Assembly: GCA_003990765.1 (NCBI GenBank)
Contig: RBNJ01000204.1
Location: 1 to 36,711, forward strand
Length of the DNA: 36,711 bases
Source: Jimgerdemannia flammicorona
Taxonomy: Eukaryota
Direction of reading: 5' to 3'
Shown: one piece after another, positions 326-34,407 of the stretch
How the letters are laid out: the number at the start of each line of letters is the position of its first letter
Position numbering within the stretch: the first letter of the stretch is position 1
Program-made: the position numbers and the translations under genes
The notes under the pieces: model-generated
What the model was told of the DNA's origin: nothing
The model's input: the letters and a program-made list of their open reading frames with translations, nothing else
Database searches by the model: none

Positions 326-799
326 TATAATATAATAGATATATATATACTAGTAAAAATATAGTAGATTTCTTTATTTTAAATACTTGATCTTCTTTAA
401 CTCCTTAGAGTCCTCAGGTGCAGGGGTGAGTAAGTTTAAAATATATCTATCTATAGACTTATTAGTTTCTTATCTCTTTACTTAAATTATTTTAATCTCA
501 GATTTATTTACTCTAAATATATACTAGAAATATTTATATAAGTTTACTAGCTATATAGTAGCTAAGTTAAGACTTCTTTTCCTGTAAGTTATTTTATATA
601 GTTGAGAGATCAGTATATTTGTGAAATCTATATAGATGAGAGATCATTATATCTGAGAGATTTATATAACTATACTTTTTATATAATTGTATAAATCATA
701 TAACTGAGAGATTAAGTAACTACTAAACTATAATACTATATTATAATGATCAAATATCTATCCTCTGATTATTATTCCTAATTTAGATTAACTATTACA
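326..799 (-). repeat. 3' LTR of element C
   Basis: Co-linear with 22162-22564 and 32825-32906; termini TATAAT...ATTACA (ancestral TG..CA). Confidence 0.9.
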
Positions 800-2720: not shown

Positions 2721-2921
2721 CTAAGTACTCAGTATATATATTCAGTTCTGATTAGTAAGGTTTTGTTTATGTAAATCTTATATTCTATAACTTCAAGTTG
2801 ACTTAGCTTTATACTCTATGACTTTGATTTAACTCAGCTTTGTAATCTTATATATGATTTCTGAATTCAATCTGAGAGTGATATGTGATTTTAGTAGCTT
2901 AGAGATTGTGCACTTATAACT

Positions 2922-7900: not shown

Positions 7901-8623
7901 CATTCCCACTCTTCCCAAAATATCTCTGTCTTAGTAGCCCCCAATGATCAGACCATAGACACCACTCAGCCTCCAGTAACTTCCAAATACCCAAGCCCTA
8001 GCAGTTTGCTATCAGAATCTAGTCAATTCTTATCCCTAGACTGCTTGCCCAGTGTATGTATACTCTCCTATTTATCTCAAAACTCCCTACTAGCATCCAT
8101 TAGAGTACTTAGCCTTTCCACTTTCTCCTATACCTTCAGATCTTCACTCCTATCCTCAGCCCCTCATTCTCTATCAGTTCTATTCACCAGTATATCTCTG
8201 ACTATATTAAAGTCTCCTTCAAGCATATCCACTCCTATCTCTATAAGAGTCCCACTTTTCTAGAGACCTTTCACCCAATCTACATGCTCACTCCTCACAG
8301 CAGGGCAGTAGTAAGAATCCACTAACCAACTTTCAACCTATTTATATTCACTCTCCCCAAACCAGTCTGTCTCTCCAGCTTCTTACATCTCATATCTCTC
8401 CTCTGTCTCTCTAGATCAGAATCTCAACCTTGCTCTTCCAAACTACCTCACCTCCCTATTCCTTTGTCTATTTTAGTCTATCCAAATAATTCTTACATCT
8501 GATATCCTGCAAAAGAAAGAGATCAGCCTCCAATCTCTTCAGCTAAGCAAAAATGTTTCAATACTAAAATGAACTCCATAACCCATTCACATTCAAAGAA
8601 AAAATATTAGTTATACTGTTCAT
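4920..8623 (-). pseudogene. LINE ORF2 (AP endonuclease + reverse transcriptase + C-terminal Zn region)
   Basis: MNSITNIFSLNVNGL start, GDFN, SDH, D*KKVYD, QGDPLPFILYALSLEPL, FTDN (ex FADD), RGGLRL, EHWLEEC; ends WVVGGDNVTRLVINSESK*. Confidence 0.9.
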
Positions 8624-8710
8624 AAGAAATATTATAAGATAGCAAGTGTATCCTCTATTACTCCATATTCATCTCCTCCTAAGCCAAGTCTAGATTGCAT
8701 TCAGCAGTCA

Positions 8711-10620
8711 CTACCTCCTCTTTGATCCTCTTAGCCTCCAATCCAACCAGTAGTTTAGCAAGTTCCCCATTCTCTTTCTTCTTGAAATCCTCATAATACT
8801 CCAGGCAGACCTCCTGCCAGAGCTGCAATCCATGATGCTCCACTCAACAGAAGGTGGCCTACTCACCAGCAGCAACTGCCAGCTCAGTCTCCTTCTCCTT
8901 ATTAACCTCATATCTTTCCTCTAGGAAAACTACAAGAACCTCTGCCTTCAGTGCCTCTATCACTCTATTATTATGCAGAATCTATGCCCAATGCTCTTCA
9001 CTCATCACTCTCAGGTCCACCTCTCCCAACTCCTCTGCTGCAAAGTTATTTATCATCTGATATATTCATAGTAGATTTCTTACCTCCTTCCTTCCTGAAG
9101 TTACTGGCCTTCCTCTATTCAGTATTGAGGTATCAATCTCTGCACTCATAGTCTTATCCCACTCCTCCTCTTGAATGTCTACTAGTTCATTCTTACCAGC
9201 TACCACTATCTGTCCCCCCTTTACTACCTCAAGAACTTCAAAGTATACTTACTAGGTTCTCTATATAGACACATCCTCTGCCACCTAGCTCCTTGAAGCC
9301 AGACCTCATCTAATAAGAGAAGTAGAAGTTGAGGAGTCCTTCCAGACCTCAAATATACCATCTGTATATGAGTCATTATCAGTCACCCCCTTGTCCACTT
9401 CCAGTCCCTTTTCTATATTCTTTCCATCTTCACTAGCTTAGACACTCACTTTGACTCTCCCCAAGATCTCAATTCCACCAGTATCCTTCTTCACTCTACT
9501 CTTCAGATTTGCCAACAGCTCTCTCTATCTCTTATATTCTTGGGACCTTTCTCACAGCTTCTTATCTATATAGATCTGCTTTCTATCCACTATCTCTAAA
9601 TGTATCAACTATATATATGCCTCTAAGCCTTTGTCCTCCACTCTACTATACCACTCAGCCCCTCTAGTTTCTCCAATAAATTCTCTTTCTTCTTCTCACT
9701 TCCCTTTATCCTCATTATCTTATATAAGAATGTCCCCCATACTATTACCAATAGCCAGTTCCCGACCTTCCCAGTAGCTTCCCTTTCTGCTAACCAAATC
9801 CAGATATCAATATCCCCAGTTCTGAATGAGGTCCCTTCCTAGACCTGGAACCCAACATCAACTACCTCTTCATACTTAGTCATGACTTCCTCAACTCTTC
9901 TCCTTATCTCCACAGTAATCACTATAGATACTCCTTTTACCAGAAATTGCACCACTCTAGGGTCCTACCTCAAGTAGCATGCCATTGGAATATACATCTC
10001 TCTGACAGTCAGCCTAGCCTTCAGTATATCCTCTAATAGCCCAGCTTTCTCAAAGCCCACCTCTACTCCTTCTAATCTCTTCAGAAACTTTACAGATGCT
10101 ACTTCAGCTATCTGCTTAGTAATCAGCCCCAATACTATTTTTGCTGTTACTGCTAAACCCCTGAAGTATAAAGTAACTATAAACTCTGAGATTGACTTCT
10201 TGAGTAATGGGGTCACCACTAGGTCTGTTATACCATCTATCAGATCCCCCATCCATCTAAGCCCCATCCTCTCAGCCCTGTTATCAGCAGTTACATCTGG
10301 ATTTTTTTCAGATTACCAGTCACCACCCTATCAGCAGTTATACTCCCAGCCACTACTCTACCAGCCCTTCTACCTGATACTCCCAAGGGAGCCCCTCCTG
10401 GCTCTCCAGCAGCAGCTGTCTCCTTTACTGTCTCCTGGCCCTTTCTCAGCCAGCTCTCTAGCCTATTTATTAGCTAACCCCTCTTCATCATATCAGCAAA
10501 GTTTGCTCTCTCTGTCTCCTATCCTCCAACCCTGCTTCCCCCCCTTCTATATCCTTCTATCAGTAGACCCCTCATGTTTCCCCCCAAGCTAGGGCCCCTT
10601 CTCATATATTGCCAGTTGAA
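8711..10620 (-). pseudogene. LINE ORF1 remnant
   Basis: Located upstream of ORF2; ORF-track fragments 9965-10267 and 8711-8911; RRM-like EVMTKYEEVVDVGF...FRTGDIDIWI. Boundaries approximate. Confidence 0.55.
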
Positions 10621-10705
10621 TATGCTTGGGCCACCCTGCTCAGTATATATCTTGGAATACTCATCAGTTGCTATGTTACTAGTCTCTTTTTTTCAAAAAT
10701 GATAT

Positions 10706-12000
10706 TGTGAGTGTCTTCAAAGATTGTGTAACCTGAATGTTATCAGAGAAAGATGATAATAATATTTTCCTTATCAGAGTGATACTGGATTTTATAGTCA
10801 AAGTTAGTGAGAACTTTTAACTATCTGGCTTACTTTTAAAAAAGAATAGTCTGGATCTTGATATTAACTAATGATTTGTGGTCTATTAAAATAGTGAAGT
10901 ATACTTCTTCAAGATAGAGTTACTATTTAATCATATAATGGCTAGCATTTCCTTCTTATGAATTATATAGTTGATTTCTACATTATTGAATTTTTGAGAA
11001 TAGTAGGCCACAGAGTGTCCTTCTTACATAAGTACTGCTCTAAGAGCTAGGTCAGAGACATTAGTAGTACATAACTTCATATAGTAGGGCAGGATTTATC
11101 ACTTGAAGTACTGGAGTGATTATTAAGACATCCTTTAGTGCTTAAAAGGCTATATCTTATTTATATTTCCAATTTACAAGATTGTTGAAGTCTTTTTCTT
11201 ATTTTGTAGTTCAGGGCTGTTCTTCTTTCTTGCTATACTTGATTATTTGGATAAGAGCAGTAGCAATCTTCATCTTTTAGCTTCTTAGGTTTGGGCCAAT
11301 TCTTGATTGTAGAGATTTTGCTAGAGTCTACTTTGATTTTATTGGGAGTAATAATGTGTCTAAGGAATTGAATTTCCTTCAGAAGGAATTCATATTTGCT
11401 GAGTTTTGCAAAGAGTCAGTTTTCTCAAAGCTTTAGTAGTACTAGTTCAAGATGTTCAAGATGTTTCTCTAGGGTTTTACTGAAGACCAGGATGTCATCA
11501 ATATAGATAATAACAAATTTATCTAGATATAAGTATAGAATGATATTCATCAGTATCTGGAAGATTGCAGGAGTATTAGTTAAGCCAAAGAACATAACCA
11601 AGAACTCAAAATATCTATAGTGAGTTTAGAAGACTATCTTGTAAATGTCTTCTTCCTTTATGGCAATTTGTTAGTAACTATTTCACAGGTCAAAAGAGCT
11701 TATAAATTGTGAATTAGTAAGTCTATTAAATATTTCATTGATTCAGGGTAGTGAGTAACAGTTCTTGATAGTCTGTTCATTGAGATCATAGTAATCAATA
11801 CACATTTGCAGGTCTTCTCCTTTCTTGACAATAAAGAAGACTGGTGCTCCATAGGGTGATACACTGGGTTTGATGAATCCTTGCTCTAGGAGTTCATCAA
11901 TCTCTTTCTTGAGTATATCAATTTCTCTCAGAGATATATAGTAGATTGACTTGAATACTGACTTAGCATCTGGGATAGTCTTGATGGTATAGTCTACTAC
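10706..12000 (-). pseudogene. Element A reverse transcriptase and RNase H
   Basis: [51 protein letters not shown]. Confidence 0.9.
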
Positions 12001-12699: not shown

Positions 12700-13700
12700 C
12701 ATTTGAGAAGAGTACATTCTGATATCATAGAGGCATCAGCTACTCAGTACAAATCTATCTTCAATTTTCTTATAGAATTATTCTTTCTCATTCATAGTGA
12801 ATCGGACTGAGGTCTTGTTTGATGAGTCAAATCCTTTGAATCCTTGGATGGTGAGCAGTAGTTCAGGGACTTCCTTGACTATCAGAGTTGATTCAATTTT
12901 CTCAAATAGGATCTGGGCAATACAGAAACTGATGGAGATCTTAAAGAGTATCTAACTATGGTTTCAGATAAGGGCAATAATTTTGTCTATATAATTCTCA
13001 TCAATAACTTCTCCTTCAACTGAGAGTCCTTTCAGTACTAGGCTGCTGCAACAGTATATTCTTCCAATATATTCTTCCAGGATTTGAATGCTGATTCTTA
13101 TATAGATTTTCTTGACTTCTCAGTTGGAAACTATAGCTTCTTTGGCTATATATAGATCATATCTGACTGCTTTTTGACTTCCTTTAATTAGAGCCTTGGC
13201 AGTTGATCTTAACTTAGTAAAGTTTACTATTTTGGTGATCAGATTGTTAACAGAGAGTTTTTCTTGCTTCTTCTTTAAGAATATGGTAGGTCTTGCAATT
13301 CTGAAAGTAATAATATAAGGCAGTCTTGGTCTTAGTATAGTGAAAGTCAGTAGAATTGAGCTACTTGACTATAGAGGCTTAGGCTTCATGAGAAACTAAA
13401 ACTAGAAAGATAGCTACTGGTTGTCCTAGGTCACTCAGGTTTGTGGAGCTGACAAAACTCTTATAGAAAAGAGTAAAGAAGACTTCTATAAGACCTTCTT
13501 CATCTTGACTTATGAGTATAGAGTAAGAAGTTTGATATATAGGATTTTATCTATCTGCTAGTTTAATTGAAGTACTTCTTTTTATAGATAAAGTCTATCC
13601 CACTTATTATAGATATAAAGATCAAATTGTTCTTATATATCAAATTTAATTCTCTCCAGATTATCAGATAGTTTAGGATAAATTCCAGTTCAGAGGTTGG
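12700..13700 (-). pseudogene. Element A gag remnant
   Basis: Lies between PBS and protease, with a decayed zinc-knuckle-like region near 12690-12745. Boundaries approximate. Confidence 0.55.
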
Positions 13701-13796: not shown

Positions 13797-15394
13797 TATA
13801 AGAGGGTTACTTGTTAGAGTAACCATTATATAGTTCTGGAAGGGTTTTCTAAAAGTTCTAGATATTCTGAACTATACTGAATATAGATATAGTACTTAGT
13901 GCCTTGCTGAGTTGAAATTTAGTCATATAGTATAAGTGTGAACTAATATATCAAGAGATCATCTGACTGCTGAGTCAGTTTATAGCTATGTTATATAAGG
14001 CTAATCTAACTATACTAATGACTGCTAAGCTATCTATAGATTTAGATACTATCTGGATAGTCTTCAATAATACCATTATTAATAATATTATCTCTAATAA
14101 AGTAGTTACCAGAAAGAGTAGTTCTCAGATTACTTTTCTTTGTTCACTCAGATAATAATATATCAGAACCTCATCACTGTTCTACAGAATAGCATCATCT
14201 ATCTTATATGCTAGATATAGAGTTGGTGGGCAAAGGAGGGATATATTATCTTCACTTTCATCAGATTTGCTATCTGTGTATCTTCTATAGGTTACAGTAC
14301 TATATATTGCTAAATTATAGTAAGCTGACAGCTATTGTTCATATTACTCATACTTAGGTGGTAAAGTTGTCTAGAGGTATAGGTTGTATTCTCCAGTCTC
14401 TTCATTGAAGTTGAAGTAGTTGGGGGGTAAATGCAGATTGGTACTCATACCAGTGATCATTATTCCAATAAATCTCATAAATAGTTATGAACTATTGTAA
14501 GTTTATTAGCAAAGTTAGTAGAGTGATTAGAGCTGGCAGAAATTCTTAGCTGGAGGTCATATCAGTGTTGAAGGGATCATTATCTTCTACTTTATTATTA
14601 TCAAACTAGATTATATTATAGATATCCTTTATAGCATATCTAACTTGGAGCATTTGCATGATATAGTTATTGAGATGTAGGAAGGTTCTGTCTGTAGTCT
14701 GGACATACTCAATATACTTATGATTGAGTTCTTATACCATATTGTTGATTTGACTATAAGATAGAGTAATAATTATTTCAGTAGTAGTAACTCAAAGATA
14801 GAGAATAAAGGTGCTATACTCATAAAAGAGTTCTTTATATTTGTGGATAATAAGTTTCAAGTGTTAGGATATCTGAATAATATCTATGACATAGTAGTGT
14901 TCAACTATATCTTTCAGAAGACAGCTGATCTAGTAGTAGCTTGAGATTTGTCTAATTCAGTGAGCTTCACTGAGTATGTTCAGAGTATTCTATCAGGCAT
15001 CTATGAAGTAGAGGGGTACTAAGCTATAGATATTCATAAGAGGTAAGAGAGGTGTGGCTTGGTTGATAATAATATTTCAAATATCAGCACAGATACAGTT
15101 GTAGATCTTAGTGGTCATGTTTATATATATGTTCAAGAGTTATAGTTGTTTGTTTGGTTTATTGTAGTTCTTGTTTTGATATATCTGAGTATTCAATATA
15201 TATATATATATATATATTCAGTCTTGATTGGTAAGGTTCTATTTGTGTAAATCTTATATTTCATAACTTCAAGTTGACTCAGCTTTATACTCTGTGACTT
15301 TGGTTTAACTCAGCTTTGTGATTTTGCATATGATTTCTGGATTTGATCTGAGAGTGATGTATGATTTCAGTGGCTTGGAGGTTGTATACTTATA
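13797..15394 (-). repeat. 5' LTR of element A (~1.6 kb, internal deletion)
   Basis: Matches 912-2918 but lacks the segment equivalent to ~987-1418. Confidence 0.92.
14600..15118 (-). pseudogene. Second copy of the U3 accessory ORF in the element A 5' LTR
   Basis: MTTKIYNCICADI*NIIINQATP... co-linear with the 2120-2720 copy. Confidence 0.65.
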
Positions 15395-16989: not shown

Positions 16990-19450
16990 TTGAGATTTCT
17001 GTAAGATATATCTATATTAGTATTATATCTTCCTGAGTAGTACATAATAGTTGTATTATAGACTTACAGTTTTATAATCTATTTAACAAATATTTCTTTA
17101 GATTGACTGATGATCAATAACTAGATAAAGGCTGAATCATTAGTCAGAATAGTGAAGTATCTTTCAACAAAGTAGTAGTAAAACTTTCTACAGCCCAGAT
17201 GACTATAAGATACTCCAGCTTATAGAATTTATATTCTCTTTCTCTTTTGTAGTTTCTTAGCTAAGATATATAATTATATATTCAATCTTATTCTTCTTTT
17301 ATATAAAAACTACTCTTAGTCTAATTGAGCTTACATTTATCTATAAGATAAACTCTTGAAGCCAGTCAGATCTTCTCAAGATAGATATCTGAGAGACCTT
17401 GAGATGTTTGAATACTTGTTATTACCTATCAATCTATTAGAACTTGGTATCTTTCTTAAATAATTCATAGATAGGATCTATAATACTTTGATAAATCTTA
17501 ATTGAGTCTATATAGGTTCTATTCTAATTGATAAATATCTAAGATAGGAGATCTTGATTTTACTGAACTTATACTTCTTTAGCTTAATAAACAGGTCATA
17601 ATCTCTCAGTTTTTGCAGAATTTGATAAATATAGTTCAGATATTCCTTAGTTATCTTGCTGTAGATAACTATATCATCTATATCAGCTCCTTTCTCTGCT
17701 ACCTTACTGGTTACAAGGTTTGGTAGGCAACCTTCCAAGTCCCCTTTCCCCTAATATTACCCCCTCTACCTCGGGTTGGTTTACTATGCCTGCAGGGGCA
17801 TGGTGGGAGGAGGGCAATGGTGATGAGTTGCCCCTTTATCGGTGTCAGATCGGTGCTTCCTCTACTTTTTTGTGAATTTTGGTGCCTTCAGCTGTGTCTA
17901 GGGTATACCCGTTTTGGTGCAGCACCTTCTTCCTTTTGCTATCGCCAACAAGGAGTTGTCTCAGTGTGTCTCGGGCTACGTAGGGAGTCGGCCGACCTTG
18001 GGCATCAAGTGCTCAGTGTAGGTTACCTGCAGGTCCTCGGTACCTGTGGTGGGGCCCTCTGGCTTTGGTGAGCTTCCTGGCAAGCGTGGTTCTGGCGTAG
18101 GTGACTGCTTTTCGGATGTTGTCGGGATGGGAGGGGAGATGGCTGTCACAGATAGACAGAAGGGCGATTATGGTGAACCAGTAGGGTACCAGGCTGGGGG
18201 CGGTCGTCGGGGCTGAGGCAGGTGCTGCTTCAGTGGGGCCTTTTGATTGGTGCAGCATAGTTAGGTGGTAGGTGTCACTATTGGCTTCTTTTGGCAGTCA
18301 GCGGGGTTGGGCCCCAGTCGTCAGGGGGGGTTGGGAGGCCCGAGGCTACCCATTTCAGGCATCTTGGCTACACTCAACTGGAACCGGGAGCTGACATAGC
18401 AATGTGATCGAGGCCCACAGGCTTGAGTAGTGGGGTATTGGGGGCTTCCTCCCGCCTCACGTGTAAGTCCTTTACTCACCTCAACTGGGAGAACCAGGCC
18501 CTACCCACCATGTTGTGCTTTGATGAGGGTTTTTTATTTACCTATCATTCTCTTTGGGGTGGTAGGGACTATTCTATTCGGCTTAGACATGGTCTTGTAC
18601 ATATGTTGGGTTCTCAGGTATGCACTTTCAGTCGTTGGCATATGGTTGGGTTTCCCCTGGTGGTAGGGAGAGCATGGTGCACAGAATGAGGTGCGGGCTT
18701 ATTAGCCCTGCTGCACCTGACATGGTCGAGCTGCTGGACAATAGCTAGCCTAGGTTAATGGGGGGGCAGTGCTTGGTGGGTAGTGGGGGAGAGTTTTGGC
18801 CTATATAGTCTAGGTTCCCTTCCAATAAAAATCCATAGGACATGAGTCCGTAAAACAAAAACAAAAAAAACTATATCATCTATATAGATCATTATCTATT
18901 TTTTCATATTTTCTTGGAAAATCTTATTTATTATTTTTTAAAAACTTACTAGAGTATTATATATACTAAATGGTATTTGCAAGTAGACATAGGTCTATAT
19001 GGGGTAATTAATGCTAACTTTTTACTGACTTCTCTGATAAGGCCAATTTGATAGAATTCTGAGTATAAATTCAAGGTAGTGTAGTATTATACTCTATCTC
19101 TTAGTACATATCACCAGAATATCACTAATGAGAAGCAGTAATTAGTAATTCTTCTTAGTAACTTCATTCAGTTTTCTATAGTCTGTATAGAGTCTTGAGG
19201 TAAATTCTTCTAGTTTGCTTTTTTTCTTTAGAGCTAGTACAATTTATAAGAACTAGAGACTAATGGCCTCCTTAATGATATCAGTTTCTTCTATCTACTT
19301 GATTTTCTCTCTAAGCTATTTAAAATATACTAGTGGGATTGGTCTTGCCCTTTGATAGATTGGCTTAGTATCTTTTATATCTATATTATAATAATAGTAT
19401 AGTATCTTTCTTTTGATATCCTTGAAATCAGTGATAAGAATATTCTTAAA
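16990..19450 (-). pseudogene. Element C RT and RNase H, interrupted by retroposon E at the YIDD motif
   Basis: IYIDDIVIYSK duplicated by the TSD, LFIKLKKYKF, WAVESFYYYF, ILTND; N-terminal RT region 18886-19450. Confidence 0.85.
17684..18870 (+). mobile_element. Young GC-rich poly(A) retroposon E (5'-truncated L1/Tx1-like LINE derivative or non-autonomous element)
   Basis: Perfect 15-bp TSD CTATATCATCTATAT (17669-17683, 18871-18885); AATAAA 18824-18829; A-rich tail 18852-18870; about 30 CpG; 3' end WWVVGE resembles the LINE B ORF2 end DWVVGG. Confidence 0.85.
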
Positions 19451-20329
19451 TTCATGCAGTAGCTTCTTGAGTTCCTTTTTAAATAGAAATTTATTTCCAA
19501 TAGTTTAACTATACTTGTCTGTAATTTTCTCCTTCTTGTGGTTCAATTCAGTAATCTTGATACTAATAAAAACTCCTCTTTTTATAGATCCAAATTCTCT
19601 CCTTTCTTTTTCCATTTTCTCTAACTTCTTGACTTCTGAAATTCTGAGTTACAGTATCAGAAAGATCAGTATTTATGTAAGTTAATCTTTCTTCTTAACT
19701 ATAAACAGAATTGTAGAGTTGTAGTTCTTGACAATGAGTAAGATTTCTTTAATATAATCAGAATCAATAACTTCTTCTTCAATTAAAATTTCACTCTTAG
19801 CTAGACTACTTCTTATCTTGAGTATTCTAATATAGCTCTTAAGAATAGTCATCTCTAGTCTAGTTATAAGTAGATCTATTATCTGAAATTTGAGAATTAT
19901 CTCCTCAACTATAGTAATATCTATTTCAGCAATATTTTCTGACTTATATTCTAGTAGAACTATATTAAGATAAATTCTCTAAATCTTAACCTTTATTTCT
20001 TCTTCATCATCACTATTCTCTAAGAGTACTAGTGATTCATTCTTCTGGTCTTCTTTTTCTTACTGCTTCTGTCTTCTTTTCTTCTCTTTATAATGAATCT
20101 TATAGATCTTAGTAATATATTGATAGTACTTATTTATATACTTTATATAGTATATTCAAATTTCATAAGAATATACTTCTTGAGAGACATATTCTTTAGC
20201 AATCTTCTTATATCAGTCTTTTTCACTGATCTATTCAACCTTCTTTTTCTTTTGAGTAGTTACTATATAGACTTCTTTTTGCTTGCTGTCTTCTTTCTCT
20301 ATCTTAGAGTATTTTTTTTATTAATATTG

Positions 20330-22161: not shown

Positions 22162-22564
22162 TATAATAGTAGATATATACTAACAAAAGTGCAGTAGATT
22201 TTTTTATCTTAAATACTTGATCTTCTTTAACTTCTCGGAGTCCTCAGGTACAGAGGTAGATGAGTTTGAAGTATATCTGCCTACAGGTTTACTAGTTCTT
22301 TATCTCTTTACTTAAACTATTTTGATCTCAGATTTATTTACTTTAGATACTAGAGATATTTATATAAGTTTACTAGCTATATAGTAGCTAAGTTAAGACT
22401 TCTTTTCCTATAAGTTATTTTATATAGTTGAGAGATTGATATATCTGTAAAATCTGTACAAATGGGAGATCATTATATCTGAGAGATTTATATAGCTATA
22501 CTTTTATATAATTATACAAATTATATAACTGAGAGATTAAGTGACTGCTAAACTATAATACTAT
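22162..22564 (-). repeat. 5' LTR of element C, part 1 (split by D)
   Basis: Co-linear with 326-~740. Confidence 0.88.
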
Positions 22565-23892
22565 TATGATATGAACTTCCAGTATAGCATAGTTACTTAT
22601 GTCTACTACACTTATAATTAGCCAGAATACCAAATCAGGGTTATTTATCTATATTCTGAGGACACACCTATATCTGGTAGATATACTTATATTCTGTAGA
22701 TATACTCATATCCTGTAGACACACTCATATCCTATAGATATACTTATGTTCTATAGACATACTTAAATATTACTAGAGATGATAAATCTATAATTATTCA
22801 GATAGCAACTAGATAGTAACCATAATATATAAAATACCCCAGAGATAAGAGTGAATAAACCTCAGTCCAAATTGAAGTACAAATTAAAGAAGTTTTTAAA
22901 GATTGAGCATTAGTCTCCTTTTTCTATTTTGGTCTATTTTTTGATAGAAAGAACAAGTCTATTTTTAGTTTACTTGCTAGATAAGCCTGCCAAAGTTCAA
23001 GTAAAGAACTTTGCCACTATTTAAGTAGTCTGTCACTTAAGAAATAAGCTATCATTTTTAAGAAATTTGCTATCTTATTACAAAGCCAGTCTGTTGACAC
23101 AACTTTGCAGTGAACTTATTTATATAAATGAAGCCAGTCTCAATATAACTTTGCCAAGAACCTGTATTCCCAGAGAGCTCTTAAGGAATCTTGCTACAAG
23201 CCAGCCTCTTGATGTAACTTTATAGTAGAGCTAGTCTATGATATAACCCTATGCAAATGAAACTAGTCTTTAACATAACTTACTGAGAATCCATATTATC
23301 TAAGTTATCTGAATATTCACTATCTGAGTTATTTATCTATTCCCAGTAAGCCCAATTTAGAAGAATCCATACTATCCACTATTCTCAAAAGAGCTAATTC
23401 AGAAAAATCTGCAATATCTAAGTTATTTAAGTTATTTGAATTATCTGTACTATCTAAGTTATTATTCAAGAAGTCTGCTAATTTAGAATCTGCACCAAAT
23501 CAAGTTATCTATCAAATTATATATTTTTGGAGATTATTGCACTATATAGAGATTACCTATTACTTAAGAAGGAAAACTACTAAATTACTAGACTACTTCA
23601 TATAAGAAAACCCATTACACTATATAGAGATTATTATGCAGAAATCACCTATCACTTAAGAAAAAAACTGCTAAATTACCAGTCTGCCACATACACAAAT
23701 TACTACTATACTCAAGAACCTATCCTAATAAGAATATTACTTATTATATCTAGATTGATTATTATATCTCTAAATACTAATAAGAAAACTCAGAATATTT
23801 TGCTACTTTTTAACAAAGTAACTAGGAGTTCAAGCCAAACTACATCAACCCCCATCCTTGTAATTTACCTCTATTGAGTCAGGTATATTATA
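22565..23892 (+). repeat. 5' LTR of element D
   Basis: Co-linear with 31447-32820; TATATAAAA ~22826, AATAAA ~22854; internal tandem sub-repeats. Confidence 0.92.
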
Positions 23893-24289: not shown

Positions 24290-25400
24290 AGAACAGAAAG
24301 ACTAAGAAGTTGTCTCTTTAAGGATACTCAGACCTATTCCACCCTATCCAAGATCTTCTATACCATCCTCAGGATACCCAAGTGTCTTAGACTCCAGCAA
24401 TAACTCAGAAAGTGAATCAGATTCAGTATCAGGATTAGAACCAGAACCAGAATCAGAAGACAGTGATGACAAAATAATCACCCTATTGTTAATCTTTGCA
24501 GGATACCCCAAAGAAGACCCAAGAGAATTTCTTGATTGAATAGAAGAAATTACAGCTCTGAAAAACCTCACTTCTGAAAGAAAAATCACTATCTACAAGG
24601 CCCAACTTAGAGAACCAGTTAAAGGAATTTTTATTCAAGCATACAATAATTCAAACTCAGACCTTAGAGCAGCTATCATTACAGCAACAACTTGGCTAGC
24701 AGAGTATCAAGCTATGACCCACTGGCTCATTGAGAAGTATGCAGGAAATGAGACCTGCTACAAGGCTTAAGAATCTATCATAAGAATGAAAATGAACCTT
24801 AGAGAATCACCCAGAGCCTTCTTTACAAGAATTCAAAAGAGAATGTATATAGCTGGATTCAATACCACTAACCAAGATATCATAGGTCTAATGACCTTCA
24901 TGAATGGAATTTCCCTGGACATTACTCAGTATGTCTATACTCTAGATATCAGAAGGTTTAAAGAACAAGTAGATGTAGCCGAAGAATTCTTTAATATCAG
25001 ACAAGGAACTACCTAAAGTGACTATAATAAGAAGGATAATAAAGAAGATATTCTGATCAAAGCCCTATAAGGACTTCTTTAAGGATAGGAGTAAAATTCA
25101 GGACCTCAGTTCTAAGTTGGACTGATTGGTTGGACAGATTGAAAAACTTACCATATACAAAAATCAGAGTTATCAAGACAACAGAGAATACTCACCACAG
25201 AGGAGCCAAGGTTATCTACTAAGAGATAATAGAAACTATCAGTAAGAAGAAAGGATATATCCTATCCAAAACAGAGCCCAAGTCTAATACTTTCATTATA
25301 GATAATTTGGATACTATACCACTGAATATGACAATAAAAGGAGTGATCAAAGGGATTCAGAACTACTAAATCAAAGGAATGAAACCCAGTATAAGAAGAC
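24290..25400 (+). pseudogene. Element D gag
   Basis: IFAGYPKEDPREFLD, ESPRAFFTRI and FMNGI; knuckle YFHYR*FGYYTTEY at 25288-25329 (Cx2Cx4Hx4C with C/H>Y). Confidence 0.85.
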
Positions 25401-25939
25401 TGAAGTCTATCCTGTTGAAGACTTTGAAGAAGAAAGCAACAGTGAAGACTATAGTGACCTAGACTTGTACTCAGCCAAAGTTATCATCCAAAAGCCAGTT
25501 TACCTAGTAGAGAAGAGGAAGAGACCTATAGGAAGACCATCCAGGAATACTAGTAGAAGAATTATTCAAGTAGAAGACAAAGAACATGAAGAGAAGCAAG
25601 TAGAAATACCCCCTAGGTCTCTCTCATCTTTTGTTTCTGAAACAAATAAACTATCTCTAGAAGATAAAGAAATAGAGCAAGAAGAATGGGAACCTGCTGT
25701 CCTAAAGCCCAAAAAGAAGTATATCTCAAAGACCATACCCAGAGATATCTACAATAAAGTCTGGCAAAAGATTCAAGAAGCCAAGATGGAAGTTTCTCTC
25801 CTGCAGTTTCTACAACTAACACTAGCTAGAGTCTGAAAAAAATTACTAAGAACTACTAGGTCTAGCACTGGCCAAGTTCCAATTCTATAGCAAGAACTAG
25901 CTCTTACCTCTATCCAAGCTATGGAGAGATATGTTAGCA

Positions 25940-26290
25940 CTTATCTACATAGAGATATTGGAGGACAAAAGGAAAAAATCCTCATAGATATAGGAGTAGC
26001 TATCTGTATTATTGCCAAATGATTCCTAGATACCCTCCAATGGCCCATTGATGGACCATCTAACATTAGCATCATAATAGCAGATAGAGCCCAAACTCAA
26101 CCCCTTAGAGAAGTATAAAACATCACTATCTCTCTTAAATACATTCAGTTCTCCATTCTAAAAGCTATTATCACTGAAACTGTTATCTATGATATAATCC
26201 TTAGCACCAACTGGATGAAGAAAATAAATACAGTTATTGATATTGGTCAACAAGTACTCAAGTTTGACTACTGAGGCAAGAAGTACAGAG
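25940..26290 (+). pseudogene. Element D aspartic protease
   Basis: ILIDIGVAICII (ex DTG) and YDIILSTNWM. Confidence 0.85.
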
Positions 26291-26520
26291 TTAAGATAAC
26301 TAGCTATGAGCAATCAAAGAAAAAGAAGAAGGTTACTATCCAGAAAGAATATATCAGCAGTAAAGAGTCTACCATAGAAGAGGAAGAAGAATCCAAAGAT
26401 AGAAATGATCCCAGACTCAATCCACAAATCAACCTAGTAGATGATAGGCCAGAAGATAATGTGTGGGCCAGAAACACTATCTCTATTACCATTGGAGCCA
26501 TTGCAGGAGAGATCAAAGAA

Positions 26521-26640
26521 TGCTCTATCTGCCTCAAGAAATACAAGTACTCTAAGCACTCCTCCAAAATTATTGGGACAAGGAATTCACCTGGTACAGC
26601 TTGCTCTGAGTGCAGAAGAAGGAAGAAGAAATGCAGATAT
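26521..26640 (+). pseudogene. Zn(II)2Cys6 (GAL4-type)-like cysteine cluster in frame with D pol
   Basis: CSICLKKYKY-x17-CSECRRRKKKCRY, in the same frame as the protease and dUTPase. Confidence 0.6.
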
Positions 26641-27599
26641 GTTCCAGAAATACCTGCAGCTGAAGCTGCAGAAGTACAAGCAATCTAGGATTAAAAATTA
26701 TCTAAGGAAGAAGAAATCTCTAAACAGGAGGTTCCTGAACAAGAAGTACCTGAAGAGGAAGAAGTTCCTGAACTCATTCTCTGGGATGACTCTTGCTGGA
26801 CACTACTCAAAGATAATGACCCCTGGAATATTGAAGAAGGATCCAGCACAAGCTCCATTATTTCTAAGTAAGAAACATACTAAGAAAGAGTCTTTTGGCT
26901 AGGAAGATATCCATATTAAATCATCTTTTACTTTTCTTGAAACTACTGCTATTAGTGCCATCTGCTGGACCAATAAGAGAGACAAAGACTCCAAAGATTA
27001 AAACTCCCAACTATAGTTGCATAGTCAACTACTTTCCAAGAAGTTACTACTAAGTTACAAAGCTGATTTAGAGGATAAAGTCTCTTTATCCAAATAGAAA
27101 TATATCTCTTGGCCACCCTTTCCCCAACTTATAACCAAGATAGATACTGATTCCTGAGACAATAAGAGATCAATAATCAGAAACAGCATTTCTAAACAAT
27201 GAGATATTGTAATTATAGAAGACACCCAAACTGCTGAGACTGCAGATATCAAAAGATTCATCCTAGTTAGGATATCACAATTTACATCTTAAAGAGAGAA
27301 GATAATATAGACCAGATCCAAAAAAGCTAGACCAAGAAACCAGAAAGAAGGACTCTCAAGATCTATAATTTAGAAGAAGATATTTTAGCTCTCATCAGAC
27401 ATACAACCTACTGAGGATGGGTAGAGGATGCTACCAACTTTATGGAAGCCCTAGACCTTACAGGAAAGAGAGAAATCAACTACCTCTGAGATCTCTCTAC
27501 TGGAGCCAGATGGCCACACCTCAACCTCAGAGTCTGGAGACTTTCTACTAGTGGAGCTTCAGCCCAAGGACAGTCTGAACTCAGTAAGAATATTGCCCA

Positions 27600-28001
27600 G
27601 TATGCCCTATTGCATCCAAAGGCCAAACCTCTGACCAAAGCTCACCAAGAAGATATAAGATATAACCTTTATAGTCCAAGGATGAACCCATCAAGCCTGG
27701 AAGAATACTGATGTTTAGAACCAGACTAGCCATGTAGTCACCTTAAGAAACTTACATCTAACTGACCTTAAGGTCTGAGCTTACCAGACAGAGAATAACT
27801 GTAGAAGGAGAAACTATAAACTCGGGATATATAGGTGAAATCAAGATTATTCTATACAACAGTAGTACAGAATGGTACTGAATTATTAGAGGGCAGAAGA
27901 TTGCTCAAGCAGTCTTCATGAGAGTCAAGACCCTATAATTACAAGAAGTCTCCAAACTGACTGAAGGAATAAGACAAGCTGAAGGATTTGGAAGCTCAGA
28001 T
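27600..28001 (+). pseudogene. dut: dUTPase domain in element D pol
   Basis: All five motifs recognisable: AHQEDIRYNLYSP (I), RSEL (II), GETINSGYIGEI (III), GQKIAQAV (IV), RQAEGFGSSD (V). Confidence 0.9.
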
Positions 28002-28499: not shown

Positions 28500-29825
28500 T
28501 TTATCACAGACTATGATAACCTACTATATAATCCATCATATCACTATAGTATAAATACAGAAAATACAACACCTATCTGGTAGAAACCCTTAGAATACCC
28601 TATCACTTAAAGATATTTGAAAAGGAACACATTCAAGAACTCTTAGACAATAGAGTCATTTTGACCCTCAACCAGCTCTTGGGCCAGCCCTATACTTATT
28701 ATACCAAAGAAAGGAGGATAGAGACTCTATGTAGACTATAAGAAACTCAATTTAATTACTGAAAAGGATACCTATTCTTTGCTCAAAATCAATGACCTCT
28801 TGGATCAGTTACAAGATATCAGATACTTCAGCAGTATGGACCTTTTCACAGAATTCTATGAGATTCCTATAGACTTAAAAGACATTGAGAAGACAGCCTT
28901 TCTTGCTCTAGAAAAACTGTTTGAATATCTCTGAATGCTCTTTGAACTTTGAAATATACCTCCTATCTTTCAGAGAATGATGAATTTGATCTATATCTCT
29001 CTGATTTACTACTGCCTGATTGTATATATAAATGATTCAAACATCTACTCAGCAAATTTTGAGGAACACCTGTACTATCTAGAAGAATTCATCAAGCTCA
29101 CCCATAAGAATCACCTGAGACTCAATGTCAAGAAATACTACTTTGGAAAACAGAAACTTGAATTTCTTAAATTCATAATTTCAAAAGAAGGAATCTATAC
29201 AGATCTAAAGAAAACTGAGAAGATTAACAATTGGCCAATACCCAAGACCTTGAAGGAAATACTATCCTTTCTGATACTAGTATCCTACTACAGGAGGTTT
29301 ATCAAAGACTTTACCTAAATTACTACTTTAATCTGAATCCTTCTCAAGAAAAAAGTACCTTATAAATAGACAGAATCACAAGAGAAAGCCTTTAAAGAAC
29401 TCAAGCACTATATGACCACAGCACTAATCCTCATCTACCCCAATCTACAGAAGCCATTCATCTTATATATAGATGCTTCCAAAGATAGTCTAAAAGTAGT
29501 TCTAGCCCAAGAAGGACCTAACTAACAATACTATATAATAGCTTATATAAGCTGAGCTACTAATCAGCAGCAGATGAACTATGGTAGTACTAAATTGGAA
29601 TGTCTTATAGTTATATAGATAGTCACTCTGTTCAAGCATTATCTTATCAGAAAAAGATTCACTCTAATAACTGACTATACAGTCCTCAAATAGCTATTCA
29701 ACTATAAGAAACCTACTGGAATCCTAGCCCACTGGATCCTTATCCTCTAGAATTACAAAATCATCATTATCTATAAAGTAGAGAAAGCTCACAACAATAT
29801 TGATGTACTTTCCTGCCAACTCTAA
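28500..29825 (+). pseudogene. Element D RT and RNase H
   Basis: SSWASPILII, IVYINDSNIYS (ex YIDD), YYRRFIKDF, FILYIDASK, HNNIDVLSCQL*. Confidence 0.92.
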
Positions 29826-30904
29826 TGAACTAGAAGAAGTATATACTGAGGAACTATACTCTAAAGAAAGTTCCTCAGATCATTAAGGTATAGAAAGATC
29901 TTATCTGAAAAGAATATCAGAAAACCCACCAAGGATAGATAAATATAGAAGAAAAGTTGTGAACAGCATATCAACACTGGCTCAATCTCAGAATATAAGT
30001 CTGGAATATACTTAAAAAGTATGATACCTGCCAGAAGTACCAAGGAAGAAAGAACCATTAAGCACTATTACAACCAATTGTACTATTAGACAACATCTTC
30101 TAGAAATGGAGAGTAGATATAATTGGACCCCTACCAGTTACACTAAAAAGAAATAAGTATATTCTTATATTTGTGAAATATCTAACTAAGTGGTCCAAGG
30201 CTTTTCCAATAGAAATTACAGATGCCTTGACCATTGTAGGCCTTCTCTATAGACTCACACTCAGATATAGATCTCCAGAAGAACTTATCTCTAACCAAGA
30301 CACAGAATTCATAAACAAAATAATTATAAGTTATACTAAAATTCACAAGATCTACCTCAAACAGACCACATCATACTACCCTCAGACCAATGATATAATA
30401 GAAAGAATGAATCAGACTATTAAGAAAGAACTTGCCTGAGTTAATTCTACTAACTGAGATCTCTGCTTACCTGAGATCTTATGGGAAATTCAGAACATCT
30501 CTGCTGTCTCCACCAAACAAAAATCCTTTGAAATAATATTTGCTAAGAAAATCAGAACTATTGACTATGAGAACTTCAGAGACCTCCTTAAGAAAGCAGA
30601 ATAGTTATATAATCAAGCCTGAGTTCAGATTATCAAAGCTCAAGAAAGACAAAAGAAGTATTATAATCAGAAGTAAAAGAATCAGAAGATCAAGATTAGA
30701 GATCAAGTACTAGTTTGGAGAAGTATGATTAAAACAAACTTTGCTGCCAAACTAAAGCCCAAATGAGAAGAATTCTATCTTATATACAATATTAGAGAAA
30801 CTAGCATCTATTTAAGAAGTATGAATAGATGAACCCTAAGGACACTAGTATATATCAATTATCTCAAGATATACCTCTCCTCATATCATGAATCAGAGAA
30901 TTGA
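29825..30904 (+). pseudogene. Element D integrase (separate frame starting at a TAATG overlap)
   Basis: THQG...KKYDTCQK Zn finger, WRVDIIGPLP, ELISNQDTEF, YYPQTNDIIERMN; no chromodomain. Confidence 0.9.
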
Positions 30905-31446: not shown

Positions 31447-32820
31447 TGTGATGAGCAAATAGTATAATATAGCCAGATAATGTAAACTTCTAGTATAGTA
31501 TAGTTACTTATGCCTGCTATACTTATAATTAGCCAGGATACCAAATCAGAGTTATTTATCTGTATCTTGAGAACATATCTATATCCAGTAGATACACTTA
31601 TATCCTATGAATACACTCTTGTCCTGTAGATACACTCATGTCCTGCAGACATACTTATGTCCTGTGAATATACCCAAATATTACTAGAGATGGTAAATCT
31701 ATAATTATCCAGATAGCAACCAGATAGCAAGCATAATGTATAAAATACTCCAGAGACAAGAGTGAATAAACCTCAGTCTGAATTGAAGTATAAACTAAAG
31801 AAGCTTCTAAAGATTGAGCATTAGTCTCTTTTTTCTACTCTAGTCTACTTTTCTATATAAAGAATAAGTCCATTTTTAGTTCTCTTGCTAGATAAGCCTG
31901 AAGATTTACTATCAAAGTTTGAGTGAAGAACTTTGCCACCATTTGAGTAGTCTGTCACTTAAAGAATAAGCTATTGTTTTCAAGAAATCTGCTATCTTAT
32001 CACAAAGCCGGTCTATTGATATAACTTCACAGTAAACTTGTTCATGTAAACAAAATCAGTCTTAATATAACTTTGCCAAGAATCTATATTCTCAAAGAGT
32101 TCTTAAGGAACCTTACTACAAGTCAGTCTCTTAATATAACTTCACAGTAGAGCTAGTCTATGATAAAATTCTATACAAATGAAGCCAGTCTTTGATATAA
32201 CTTACTGAGAATCTATATTATCTAAGTTATCTGAATATCTACTACCCAAGTTATTTATCTGTTCTCAGTGAGCCCAATTCAGAAAAATCCACACTATTTG
32301 CTATTCTCAGAAGAGCCAATTTAGAAAGAATCTACAATATCTGAGTTATTTAAGTTATATATTCAAATTATCTATATTATCTAAATTATTATTCAAGAAG
32401 CCTATAAATTTAGAAGAATCTATACCAAATCAAGTTATCTACCAAATTATATACTTTTGGAGATCATTGCACTATATAGAGATTATCTGTCATCTAAGAA
32501 AAAAAACTGCTAAATTACTAGACTACTTCACATAAAAAAATTCATCATACTATACAGAGATCATCAGGTAGAGATTGCCTATCACTTAAGAAAGAAATGG
32601 CTAAATTACTAGTCTACTATATACAAATCACTACTATACCCAAGAACCTATCCCAATAAGAATATTGACCATTATATCCAGATTGACTATTATATCTCTA
32701 AATACTAATAAAGAAACTTAGAACATTTTGTTGTTTTTTAACAAAGTAACTGAGGACTCAAGCCAAACTATATTAATTTCTAATCTTATAATTTACCTCT
32801 ATTGAGCCAGACATATTATA
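31447..32820 (+). repeat. 3' LTR of element D
   Basis: Starts TGTGATG, ends TATTATA (ex CATCACA); co-linear with the 5' LTR. Confidence 0.92.
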
Positions 32821-33537: not shown

Positions 33538-33899
33538 TAGTACTTATAAATAAATTGAATCAATTCAAATAGAATTAAATTGAGAGTCATTTAAATCAAA
33601 TCAAATTGGAGTTTTTTCAATTTAAATTAAATTAAATTTGAATTGAATTGAGGGTCTGATTTGAACTCTATTTTTTGAAATATAATAACTTAATGAAAAT
33701 ATATTAAAAATTAATAATCTTTAGATTATTAGATTTTTTTTATATAGAGAAATCTAATAAGCTAAAGATTATTAAATTTAGATATATTTTTGTCAAGTTA
33801 TTATATTTTGAAAAATAGGATTCAAATCAAATCTTGAATTAAATTATATCTTTGAATTAAATCAAATTAGACCTTTGATTCAATTTATTAAGAGTACTA
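33538..33899. mobile_element. Foldback MITE 1, hAT type
   Basis: Ends TAGTACT..AATAAATTGAATC / GATTCAATTTATT..AGTACTA; near-palindromic throughout; 8-bp TSD ACTTTACA/ACTCTATA. Confidence 0.8.
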
Positions 33900-34074
33900 A
33901 CTCTATAAGAGATAGAAATATAAAGATTTGAATAAGATATTTTAGAGATAAAATTATCTATTTAGAAGAAAGTTATAATATATGATCTAAATTAGAAATA
34001 AGAATCAGAGAATAGATATTTAATTATAATATCTAAATCTGATTTCTGATATAGTATAGTAATATGATTAATCA

Positions 34075-34407
34075 TAGTACTTTCAAATAAATTAAATTAA
34101 TTTAAATTAAATCAAATTAAGAGTTATTTAAATCAAATTGAGAGTTTGATTTAAACTCTATTTTTAGAAATATAATAACTCAATGAAAATATAATCAAAT
34201 TTAATGATCTTTAACTTATTAGATTTATCTTATATATATAGAAATCTAATAAGCTAAAGATTATTAAATTTGGACATATATTCATTAAGTTATTATATTT
34301 TAAAAATAGAGTTTAAATTAAATTTTGAATTAAATTTGATTTGAATTAAATTAAATTAGACCTTTGATTCAATTGAATTGATTTGATTCAATTCATTGAG
34401 AATATTA
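34075..34407. mobile_element. Foldback MITE 2 (same family as MITE 1)
   Basis: Direct similarity to MITE 1, same palindromic structure; TSD degenerate (ATTAATCA/GTTAGTAG). Confidence 0.75.

What the first reader, a model, noticed from the sequence alone, without database searches (positions are those of the whole stretch)
26461..26688. GAL4-like Zn2Cys6 motif inside a retrotransposon polyprotein
Seen: CSICLKKYKY-x17-CSECRRRKKKCRY in frame with protease and dUTPase, flanked by acidic stretches. The Tyr at the third ligand position (TAC) is one G>A from Cys, the same change that erased the gag knuckle. Known: ACxxCRRRKxKC is the hallmark of fungal Zn(II)2Cys6 transcription factors. Inference: a captured host DNA-binding module could direct integration or autoregulate the LTR. 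Spacing is non-canonical (x5, x17), so it may be a half cluster.
Basis: partly seen in the sequence, partly recalled or inferred. Interest (0 to 1): 0.75.

Follow-up and report, generated by a model that had tools for sequence, protein, structure and literature searches.

The report
Zinc-cluster-like insert in dead fungal retrotransposon
A long-dead jumping gene carries, in frame inside its polyprotein, a small cysteine-rich module whose only detectable relative is in an ordinary fungal protein and which resembles, without fully matching, the DNA-binding zinc cluster of GAL4-type regulators.

Summary
The motif is real. CSICLKKYKY-x17-CSECRRRKKKCRY is at 26521-26640 (+), in the protease frame of a decayed dUTPase-bearing Ty3/gypsy element (LTRs 22566-23892 and 31477-32820, 83% alike). 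It is unique in the window, and 0 of 300 simulated windows contained it.

An HMMER search of 1.84 billion proteins found one homologue of the module among 150 listed hits. This is P0097, a non-transposon hypothetical protein of Jimgerdemannia flammicorona (E 8.6e-6; 48-58% identity).

The nearest polyprotein relatives, P0004 and P0005, lack the module. The window has 92 codons between two conserved motifs where they have 30 and 34, so the module is an in-frame insertion.

Membership of Zn2Cys6 is not established. Pfam Zn_clus is the top or only hit but falls below its cut-off (18.5-19.8 bits against 21). Spacing is x5/x17. PDB sequence hits to GAL4, LAC9 and PUT3 are not significant, and the AlphaFold model is poor.

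This copy is dead. A role in targeting or regulation is untested, and other copies could not be examined. Best reading: a divergent zinc-cluster-like module acquired at the plastic PR-RT junction. A new variant of a known kind, of moderate interest.

The parts
22566..23892 (+). 5' LTR of the element
   Evidence: blastn pair with 31477-32820: 83.07% identity over 1347 columns. Repeat families D1, D2, D5 and D6. 206 of 230 substitutions between the LTRs are transitions.
25891..26274 (+). Aspartic protease region (phase-1 frame, three in-frame stops)
   Evidence: Pfam RVP_2 at 21.6 bits against a cut-off of 20.3. 69% identical to fragment P0002 and 37% to polyprotein P0004. Active-site region reads ILIDIGVA.
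26485..26505 (+). Conserved junction motif ITIGAIA, just upstream of the insertion
   Evidence: Aligns with FEIGPIA of P0004 and FTIGAIE of P0005.
26506..26709 (+). In-frame extra segment relative to related polyproteins; it contains the Cys module
   Evidence: From IGAIA to WDD the window has 92 codons, against 30 residues in P0004 and 34 in P0005. tblastn collinearity with P0004 resumes at window 26710.
26518..26655 (+). Cys-rich basic module homologous to P0097 residues 201-246: C-x2-C-x5-(Y, Cys in P0097)-x2-H-x14-C-x2-C-x6-C
   Evidence: phmmer E 8.6e-6 against 1.84e9 proteins. BLASTP: 26/54 identical, E 2e-15 pairwise. tblastn: 57.8% over 45 aa. Pfam Zn_clus 18.5-19.8 bits, below the 21-bit cut-off.
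26548..26550 (+). TAC (Tyr) at the putative third zinc ligand
   Evidence: Codon table. The homologue P0097 has Cys at the aligned position.
26686..26694 (+). Two in-frame stops (TAG, then TAA one codon later) that end the ORF 15 codons after the last Cys
26893..26967 (+). Family-level Cys motif 1 of the PR-dUTPase spacer (C-x12-C-x2-C in P0004); the first Cys is Tyr (TAT) here
   Evidence: tblastn alignment with P0004; codons.
27199..27261 (+). Family-level Cys motif 2 (C-x-C ... C-x2-C-x5-H in P0004); the second Cys is Tyr (TAT) here
   Evidence: tblastn alignment with P0004; codons.
27678..27998 (+). dUTPase domain (phase 0, a different frame from the module in this copy)
   Evidence: Pfam dUTPase at 54.7 bits against a cut-off of 22. 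tblastn with P0004 residues 919-1027.
28701..29174 (+). Reverse transcriptase
   Evidence: Pfam RVT_1 at 43.7 bits against a cut-off of 29.6.
29370..29756 (+). RNase H
   Evidence: Pfam RT_RNaseH at 84.1 bits and RT_RNaseH_2 at 82.8 bits.
30104..30439 (+). Integrase core remnant
   Evidence: 111-aa ORF. Only a weak Pfam rve_3 hit, 17.4 bits against a cut-off of 26.5. No chromodomain hit.
31477..32820 (+). 3' LTR

Best explanation
The motif is a small, basic, cysteine-rich zinc-binding module of about 46-55 residues. It sits in an in-frame insertion of roughly 60 codons at the protease-dUTPase/RT junction of an old, inactivated, dUTPase-bearing Ty3/gypsy retrotransposon.

It shares ancestry with an internal segment of a non-transposon protein, P0097, a hypothetical protein of the fungus Jimgerdemannia flammicorona. 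That protein looks like a transcription factor: a basic Cys module followed by three acidic repeats.

The intact form is C-x2-C-x5-C-x2-H-x14-C-x2-C-x6-C. This amounts to two similar C-x2-C-x(5-6)-C halves rich in Arg and Lys. It is best read as a divergent relative of the fungal Zn2Cys6 binuclear cluster with a long inter-half loop.

The most likely history (inferred) is that a lineage of this element took the module from a host gene at the PR-RT junction. This is the same permissive site where dUTPase was acquired in such elements. The module would then have been expressed as part of Gag-Pol and would have bound nucleic acid. Neither the target nor the benefit to the element has been shown.

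This copy is non-functional. The third ligand is Tyr, two stops follow within 20 codons, the polyprotein has many stops and frameshifts, and the LTRs differ by 17%.
For: Shown:
- The motif is unique in the window's six frames and absent from 300 of 300 simulated windows.
- Among the 150 listed hits of an exhaustive HMMER search (171 hits at E<=0.001), only P0097 covers query residues 210-261, with E 8.6e-6 and 50% identity.
- Pairwise BLASTP gives 26/54 identities, including the non-Cys loop S-x-H-x2-K-x-IG-x-RNSPG-x-AC.
- P0097 has Cys where the window has TAC-Tyr.
- P0097 has no protease, RT or other Pfam family at E<=1, and only its module matches the window by tblastn.
- P0004 and P0005, the closest long polyprotein relatives, lack the module. 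The interval from IGxIA to WDD is 92 codons in the window against 30 and 34 residues.
- The extra segment keeps the frame and strand of Pol.

Zn2Cys6-likeness:
- Zn_clus is the top Pfam hit for the window peptide (E 0.0009-0.002) and the only hit for the P0097 module (E 0.0019).
- The profile of the two modules hits only LAC9 and GAL4 among 177,635 PDB sequences. GAL4 aligns across both halves with an 11-residue loop gap, and CRYVP aligns with CRYSP.
- The P0097 module alone hits only PUT3.
- ESM Atlas neighbours of the P0097 module are Zn_clus clusters at ranks 2-3 by features, and 9 of 10 structural rows carry Zn_clus. All of these are below the tool's confidence bars.
- The halves resemble each other: the window's half 2 aligns with P0097's half 1 at E 0.037.

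PR-RT junction as an acquisition site: dUTPase between PR and RT in fungal Ty3/gypsy elements is described in PMC2864245 (passages read) and PMC6431247 (passage read).

Decay by transitions: 206 of 230 LTR differences are transitions. Three of 14 aligned Cys positions are TAY-Tyr in the window.
Against: - Zn_clus scores (18.5, 19.8 and 18.7 bits) are all below the curated 21-bit cut-off. They cover only the first 18-20 of 39 profile positions, aligned to the module's second half.
- Whole P0097 gives no Pfam family at E<=1.
- The spacings of x5 and x17 are outside the canonical C-x2-C-x6-C-x5-12-C-x2-C-x6-8-C pattern (pattern recalled, not taken from a call).
- All PDB sequence hits have E >= 0.95. 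The window peptide alone gives eS25, RNF4 RING and AlcR at E 2.7-9.7.
- The AlphaFold2 model has mean pLDDT 53.6, and Foldseek found 0 matches.
- A conserved His, plus an extra Cys in P0097, allow a different ligand scheme.
- Only one homologue exists, so the direction of transfer is undetermined and no selection test is possible.
- No second copy of the element could be examined, so the insertion could be private to this copy or to a small sublineage.
- The PR-RT junction is not where known targeting domains of LTR elements sit; they are on integrase (recalled).
Confidence: 0.55

Rival explanations
1. The transfer went the other way, or P0097 is not a host gene. On this reading the module arose in retroelements, and the Jimgerdemannia protein is a domesticated or mis-annotated piece of an element, a chimeric gene model on a 5.3-kb contig.
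For: P0097 is a partial model on a contig of 5254 bases, with one member sequence and one contig. No other cellular homologue was found in any search. The spacer of this element family already carries other Cys motifs. P0097 has I-P-I-G 18 residues before its first Cys, faintly like the element's I-T-I-G-A-I-A (by eye; not significant).
Against: P0097 shows no protease, RT, gag or other transposon family. Nothing outside the module matches the element. The closest polyprotein relatives lack the module. P0097's architecture, a basic Cys module followed by three acidic repeats of about 57 aa, is what a transcription factor looks like (by eye).
Confidence: 0.2
2. The module is not a Zn2Cys6 cluster. 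It is two independent mononuclear zinc knuckles (C-x2-C-x5-C-x2-H, then C-x2-C-x6-C plus a fourth ligand) acting as a basic RNA/DNA chaperone-like element for the retroelement, as nucleocapsid knuckles do.
For: His is conserved three residues after the third ligand in both sequences. P0097 has an eighth candidate ligand (Cys, x7 after the last). Zn_clus membership fails its cut-off. Weak hits to a treble-clef family (zf_Tbcl_Rhp7, E 0.02) and RING-like families and to the RNF4 RING. The same spacer carries other Cys/His motifs.
Against: The window has Ala at the eighth position. The spacings match neither RING nor the retroviral CCHC knuckle (patterns recalled). The only PDB hits of the two-sequence profile and of the intact P0097 module are Zn2Cys6 proteins. 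The two halves are mutually similar, as in Zn2Cys6.
Confidence: 0.2
3. The segment is a functionless passenger. A piece of a host gene was inserted into an already dead copy, or into a short-lived sublineage, and never served the element.
For: Only one copy is known, and it is dead. There are 24 in-frame stops in 741 codons of the phase-1 frame, 25306-27528. No other copy or polyprotein with the module was found in any database searched.
Against: The segment is on the sense strand, read in the Pol frame, and restores that frame downstream. For a random insertion this has roughly a 1-in-18 chance (my estimate: 1/2 x 1/3 x 1/3). It sits at the junction where accessory domains are tolerated.
Confidence: 0.15

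Closest known systems
Fungal Zn(II)2Cys6 binuclear cluster DNA-binding domain (Pfam PF00172; GAL4, LAC9, PUT3)
   Same: Two tandem C-x2-C-x(5-6)-C halves rich in Arg and Lys. The ACxxCRxRKxKC signature is present. In the window the last Cys is followed by RY-x-P, as in GAL4. Zn_clus is the top or only Pfam hit, and the only PDB sequence hits of the profile and of the intact homologue are Zn2Cys6 proteins. The one homologue is fungal.
   Different: Scores are below the curated cut-off. The first half has x5, not x6. The loop between halves is 17 residues, not 5-12. There is a conserved His. No dimerisation coiled coil is evident. The window copy has only five of the six Cys. The module sits inside a retroelement polyprotein rather than at the N-terminus of a regulator.
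dUTPase-bearing Ty3/gypsy LTR retrotransposons of fungi (e.g. PosPlaTy3-5 of Postia placenta, with dUTPase between PR and RT; PMC2864245, passages read)
   Same: The domain order is gag-PR-spacer-dUTPase-RT-RH-IN, with long LTRs. An accessory domain has been acquired at the PR-RT junction.
   Different: This element has an additional zinc-cluster-like module upstream of the dUTPase. The closest polyprotein relatives found (P0004, P0005) lack it. It was not found described in the papers searched.
Chromoviruses (Ty3/gypsy elements with a chromodomain on integrase that guides integration); recalled, with background in PMC2864245
   Same: A retroelement that has taken up a host-type chromatin or DNA recognition module.
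   Different: There the module is fused to the integrase C-terminus and its targeting role has been tested. Here the module lies between PR and dUTPase, no targeting evidence exists, and no chromodomain was detected in the degraded integrase region.

Membership tests
Pfam Zn_clus (PF00172), fungal Zn2Cys6 | Profile score at or above the curated gathering cut-off (21 bits) | tested here: not met
   Window ORF 18.5 bits, window 75-aa piece 19.8 bits. P0097 module 18.7 bits. Whole P0097 gives no hit at E<=1. Only profile positions 1-18/20 of 39 are matched.
Pfam Zn_clus (PF00172), fungal Zn2Cys6 | Six Cys with spacing C-x2-C-x6-C-x5-12-C-x2-C-x6-8-C (pattern recalled) | tested here: not met
   Window: C-x2-C-x5-Y-x17-C-x2-C-x6-C, five Cys. 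P0097: six Cys but with the same x5 and x17 spacing.
Pfam Zn_clus (PF00172), fungal Zn2Cys6 | Basic residues between the second and third Cys of the half-sites | tested here: met
   LKKYK and RRRKKK in the window; RKKHK and RERKRK in P0097.
Pfam Zn_clus (PF00172), fungal Zn2Cys6 | Binds two Zn ions through six Cys, two of them bridging, and recognises CGG triplets | not testable with these tools
   The AlphaFold2 model (no metals) has pLDDT 53.6. Foldseek against the PDB found 0 matches.
Ty3/gypsy LTR retrotransposon with dUTPase | Two LTRs flanking gag-PR-(dUTPase)-RT-RNaseH-IN in that order | tested here: met
   LTR pair at 83% identity. RVP_2 at 21.6 against 20.3. dUTPase 54.7, RVT_1 43.7 and RT_RNaseH 84.1 bits. 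Integrase is only weak: rve_3 at 17.4 against 26.5.
RING finger (C3HC4) | C-x2-C-x9-39-C-x1-3-H-x2-3-C-x2-C-x4-48-C-x2-C (pattern recalled) | tested here: not met
   The observed spacings (x5 before the third ligand, x14 after His, x7 before the last Cys in P0097) do not fit. Hits to zf-RING_11 (E 0.05-0.13) and RNF4 (E 2.9) are not significant.
Retroviral/gag CCHC zinc knuckle (PF00098) | C-x2-C-x4-H-x4-C | tested here: not met
   No zf-CCHC hit on the ORF at E<=10. The spacing is different.

The most novel reading that the evidence does not exclude
A lineage of Ty3/gypsy retrotransposons in an early-diverging or AT-rich fungus carried a functional GAL4-type (Zn2Cys6-like) sequence-specific DNA-binding cluster inside Pol. 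It used this to steer integration to, or regulate transcription from, defined DNA sites such as CGG-type sites. In a genome whose repeats have lost almost all CpG, such sites would mark unmethylated gene-proximal DNA. This would be a new principle of retroelement targeting, borrowed from the host's own transcription-factor repertoire.
Probability: 0.1. Interest if true: 0.8.

Novelty: new variant of a known kind. Interest (0 to 1): 0.5.

Why it matters
LTR retroelements are known to pick up accessory domains, such as dUTPase at the PR-RT junction and chromodomains on integrase. Some of these decide where the element lands.

A transcription-factor-type zinc cluster inside Pol was not found described in the three literature searches made here. 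If active copies exist, they would offer a natural example of a retroelement borrowing sequence-specific DNA recognition.

The module itself, with x5 and x17 spacing and a conserved His, is also unusual. It is an apparently very rare, uncatalogued relative of the Zn2Cys6 fold, known so far from one fungal protein and this element.

The present evidence is one dead copy and one homologue, so the finding is a lead rather than a result.

Tried and rejected
Homologue and copy searches:
- Whole genome of the window: none is held, so other copies of the element could not be surveyed.
- Public sequencing runs: none was listed.
- Earlier findings of this scan: nothing by place, sequence or words.
- Word-indexed protein search. 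The 137-aa ORF against longer proteins gave 0 hits at E<=0.01 among 165 candidates. P0097 residues 190-260 found only itself. The two-sequence profile against longer proteins found only P0097.
- Metagenome contigs. In the profile scan, 551 pattern matches were found and none was confirmed. A degenerate DNA pattern for RNSPGxACxxCRxRKxKC gave 0 matches.

Structure and family tests:
- AlphaFold2 on the two-sequence alignment gave pLDDT 53.6. Foldseek against the PDB gave 0 matches. Nothing can be concluded about the fold.
- ESM Atlas. All scores were under the tool's 0.9 bar, so they are leads only. For the window peptide the only row shown was an unnamed 77-aa cluster.
- RING, CCHC knuckle and treble-clef readings were rejected or left open on spacing and non-significant scores.

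Local checks:
- The gag-knuckle claim has no alignable remnant.
- Overlapping ORFs at the site, +3 frame 26441-26902 and minus strand 26304-26684, have no Pfam family at E<=0.1. I read them as by-products of composition.
- Rfam: 0 families in the window.
- Target-site duplication, PBS and PPT: the LTR ends are too decayed for a confident call (by eye).
The natural intact homologue, the P0097 module, was scanned instead.

Full report
**1. Observation**

The stop-to-stop ORF 26275..26688 (+) is 137 aa and ends ...GAIAGEIKECSICLKKYKYSKHSSKIIGTRNSPGTACSECRRRKKKCRYVPEIPAAEAAEVQAI*.
- Cys codons are at 26521, 26530, 26602, 26611 and 26632.
- The Tyr at the putative third ligand is TAC at 26548.
- The pattern is the only match in the window's six frames to C..C[RK]..[RK].[RK]C and to a relaxed six-ligand expression. 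Neither pattern occurred in any of 300 second-order-Markov simulations of the window.
- No second copy of the peptide or of the element's internal region lies in the window.

**2. Setting**

The motif lies inside a decayed Ty3/gypsy element.
- The LTRs are 22566-23892 and 31477-32820, 83.07% identical over 1347 columns. 206 of 230 substitutions between them are transitions.
- Pfam finds protease (RVP_2, 21.6 bits against a cut-off of 20.3). It also finds dUTPase (54.7 bits, 27678-27998), RT (43.7 bits, 28701-29174) and RNase H (84.1 bits, 29370-29756). There is a weak integrase core (rve_3, 17.4 against 26.5).
- The phase-1 frame from 25306 to 27528 has 24 stops in 741 codons.
- The module shares the protease frame. 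The dUTPase is in another frame in this copy, so the statement 'in frame with dUTPase' holds only for the intact relative P0004.
- dUTPase between PR and RT in fungal Ty3/gypsy elements is already in print (PMC2864245, passages; PMC6431247, passage).

**3. The one homologue**

The region 25891-26880 was read with X at its six stops (P0001) and searched by HMMER against 1.84 billion representative proteins.
- 171 proteins scored E<=0.001 and 150 were listed. 149 of these match the protease and adjacent spacer.
- One, P0097 (531 aa), matches only query residues 210-261, which is the module, at E 8.6e-6 and 50% identity.
- BLASTP gives 26/54 identities and tblastn gives 57.8% over 45 aa.
- The match includes the non-Cys loop S-x-H-x2-K-x-IG-x-RNSPG-x-AC, so it is not a composition artefact.
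- P0097 reads KCDKCRKKHKCSVHATKFIGERNSPGRACSSCRERKRKC.
- A source names P0097 'hypothetical protein BC936DRAFT_139739, partial [Jimgerdemannia flammicorona]'.
- P0097 has no Pfam family at E<=1 and no other similarity to the element.
- By eye it consists of a Pro/Thr-rich N-terminus, the module, and three acidic repeats of about 57 aa. That layout fits a transcription factor.
- Three word-indexed searches of 5.8 billion proteins found no further member. Two metagenome scans also found none.

**4. An insertion**

The closest long polyprotein relatives are P0004 (1179 aa, carrying gag knuckle, PR and dUTPase) and P0005.
- Both align with the window on either side of the module: ...ITIGAIA upstream and ...WDD downstream.
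- Between these anchors the window has 92 codons. P0004 has 30 residues and P0005 has 34.
- tblastn collinearity with P0004 resumes at 26710.
- The extra segment is on the sense strand and keeps the Pol frame. I estimate roughly a 1-in-18 chance of this for a random insertion. This is mild evidence that the element was still under selection when it carried the segment.

**5. What kind of module**

Lines pointing to the fungal Zn2Cys6 cluster:
- Zn_clus is the top hit for the window peptide (E 0.0009-0.002) and the only hit for the P0097 module (E 0.0019).
- A profile of the two modules hits only LAC9 (E 1.4) and GAL4 (E 6.3) among 177,635 PDB sequences. GAL4 aligns across both halves with an 11-residue gap in the loop, and CRYSP lies opposite CRYVP.
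- The P0097 module alone hits only PUT3 (E about 1).
- ESM Atlas neighbours of the P0097 module are mostly Zn_clus clusters, all below that tool's bars.
- The two halves resemble one another, as they do in Zn2Cys6.

Lines against:
- All three Pfam scores (18.5, 19.8 and 18.7 bits) fall below the 21-bit cut-off and cover only profile positions 1-18/20.
- The spacing is x5/x17.
- The window peptide alone hits eS25, RNF4 RING and AlcR at E 2.7-9.7.
- The AlphaFold2 model is unreliable (pLDDT 53.6) and Foldseek finds nothing.
- A conserved His, and an eighth candidate ligand in P0097, allow a scheme with two mononuclear sites.

I therefore do not file the module as a member of PF00172. I read it as a divergent relative that probably works like one.

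**6. Decay**

The window is almost free of CpG (observed/expected 0.04; 0.01 in the element). Of 14 Cys positions aligned to P0097 or P0004, the window has Cys at 10, TAY-Tyr at 3 and Ala at 1. Transition decay of zinc ligands is therefore recurrent in this copy. The specific claim about the gag knuckle could not be confirmed.

**7. Mechanism and rivals**

Most likely (0.55): a host-derived, Zn2Cys6-like nucleic-acid-binding module was acquired at the permissive PR-RT junction, was expressed within Gag-Pol in the active ancestor, and is now dead.

Rivals:
- Transfer ran from element to host, or P0097 is a chimeric gene model (0.2).
- The segment is a functionless passenger (0.15).

I put it at about 0.1.

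**8. Novelty**

Three full-text searches found no paper that describes a Zn2Cys6-type domain in an LTR-retrotransposon polyprotein. One search listed 2 papers, one search listed 2 and one search listed 1. All are genome reports judging by their titles and abstracts in the listing, and I did not read them further. I rate the finding a new variant of a known kind (accessory-domain acquisition by Ty3/gypsy elements), with interest 0.5. The rating is limited because the evidence is one dead copy and one homologue.

Noticed in passing
window 1-36711; CpG cluster at 17772-18849: CpG depletion is extreme: only 37 CpG dinucleotides in 36.7 kb (observed/expected 0.04; 0.01 in the element). 30 of the 37 lie in one GC-rich stretch of about 1.1 kb (50-59% GC) that has no long ORF (13 ORFs of 50 aa or more, the longest 114 aa). 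TpA is not in excess (1.04-1.08). The pattern looks like methylation-linked CpG decay rather than classical CpA-to-TpA RIP.
   Followed up: partly
window 26893-26967 and 27199-27261 (+): The PR-dUTPase spacer of this element family has two further Cys/His motifs shared with polyprotein P0004 (C-x12-C-x2-C, and C-x-C...C-x2-C-x5-H). In the window one Cys in each is TAT-Tyr. The spacer may be a zinc-binding region in the whole family.
   Followed up: partly
window 12820-13167 (-) and 19715-19957 (-): Two further dUTPase-like remnants on the minus strand match P0004's dUTPase (33% and 30% identity). Several dUTPase-bearing retroelements are therefore packed into this window.
   Followed up: no
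window 1483-2918 and 13932-15394: A second pair of long direct repeats (79-89% identity, spacing about 12.45 kb) probably marks the LTRs of another element. The GC-richer interior at 5000-11000 has a strong negative GC skew. The ORF at 6274-6732 (-) looks like a reverse transcriptase by eye; this was not tested.
   Followed up: no
window 340-679 and 22170-22505: A 340-bp repeat (83-92% identity) lies just upstream of the 5' LTR of the element studied and also near the start of the window. This suggests nested or serial insertions into the same older repeat.
   Followed up: no
window 33619-34337: Tandem-like direct repeats with a period of about 490 bp (78-82% identity) lie in the most AT-rich part of the window, at 16-18% GC.
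   Followed up: no
window 26491-26685 and P0097 residues 192-256: In the ESM Atlas both modules have the same kind of first neighbour: an unnamed 77-aa 'hypothetical protein' cluster with 79 members (scores 0.76 and 0.78, below the tool's bar). It could be a reservoir of further module-bearing sequences, but it could not be fetched.
   Followed up: no
window 26441-26902 (+, other frame): A 153-aa ATG-started, very basic ORF overlaps the module in another frame. It has no Pfam family at E<=0.1 and is probably a by-product of the purine-rich sequence.
   Followed up: partly
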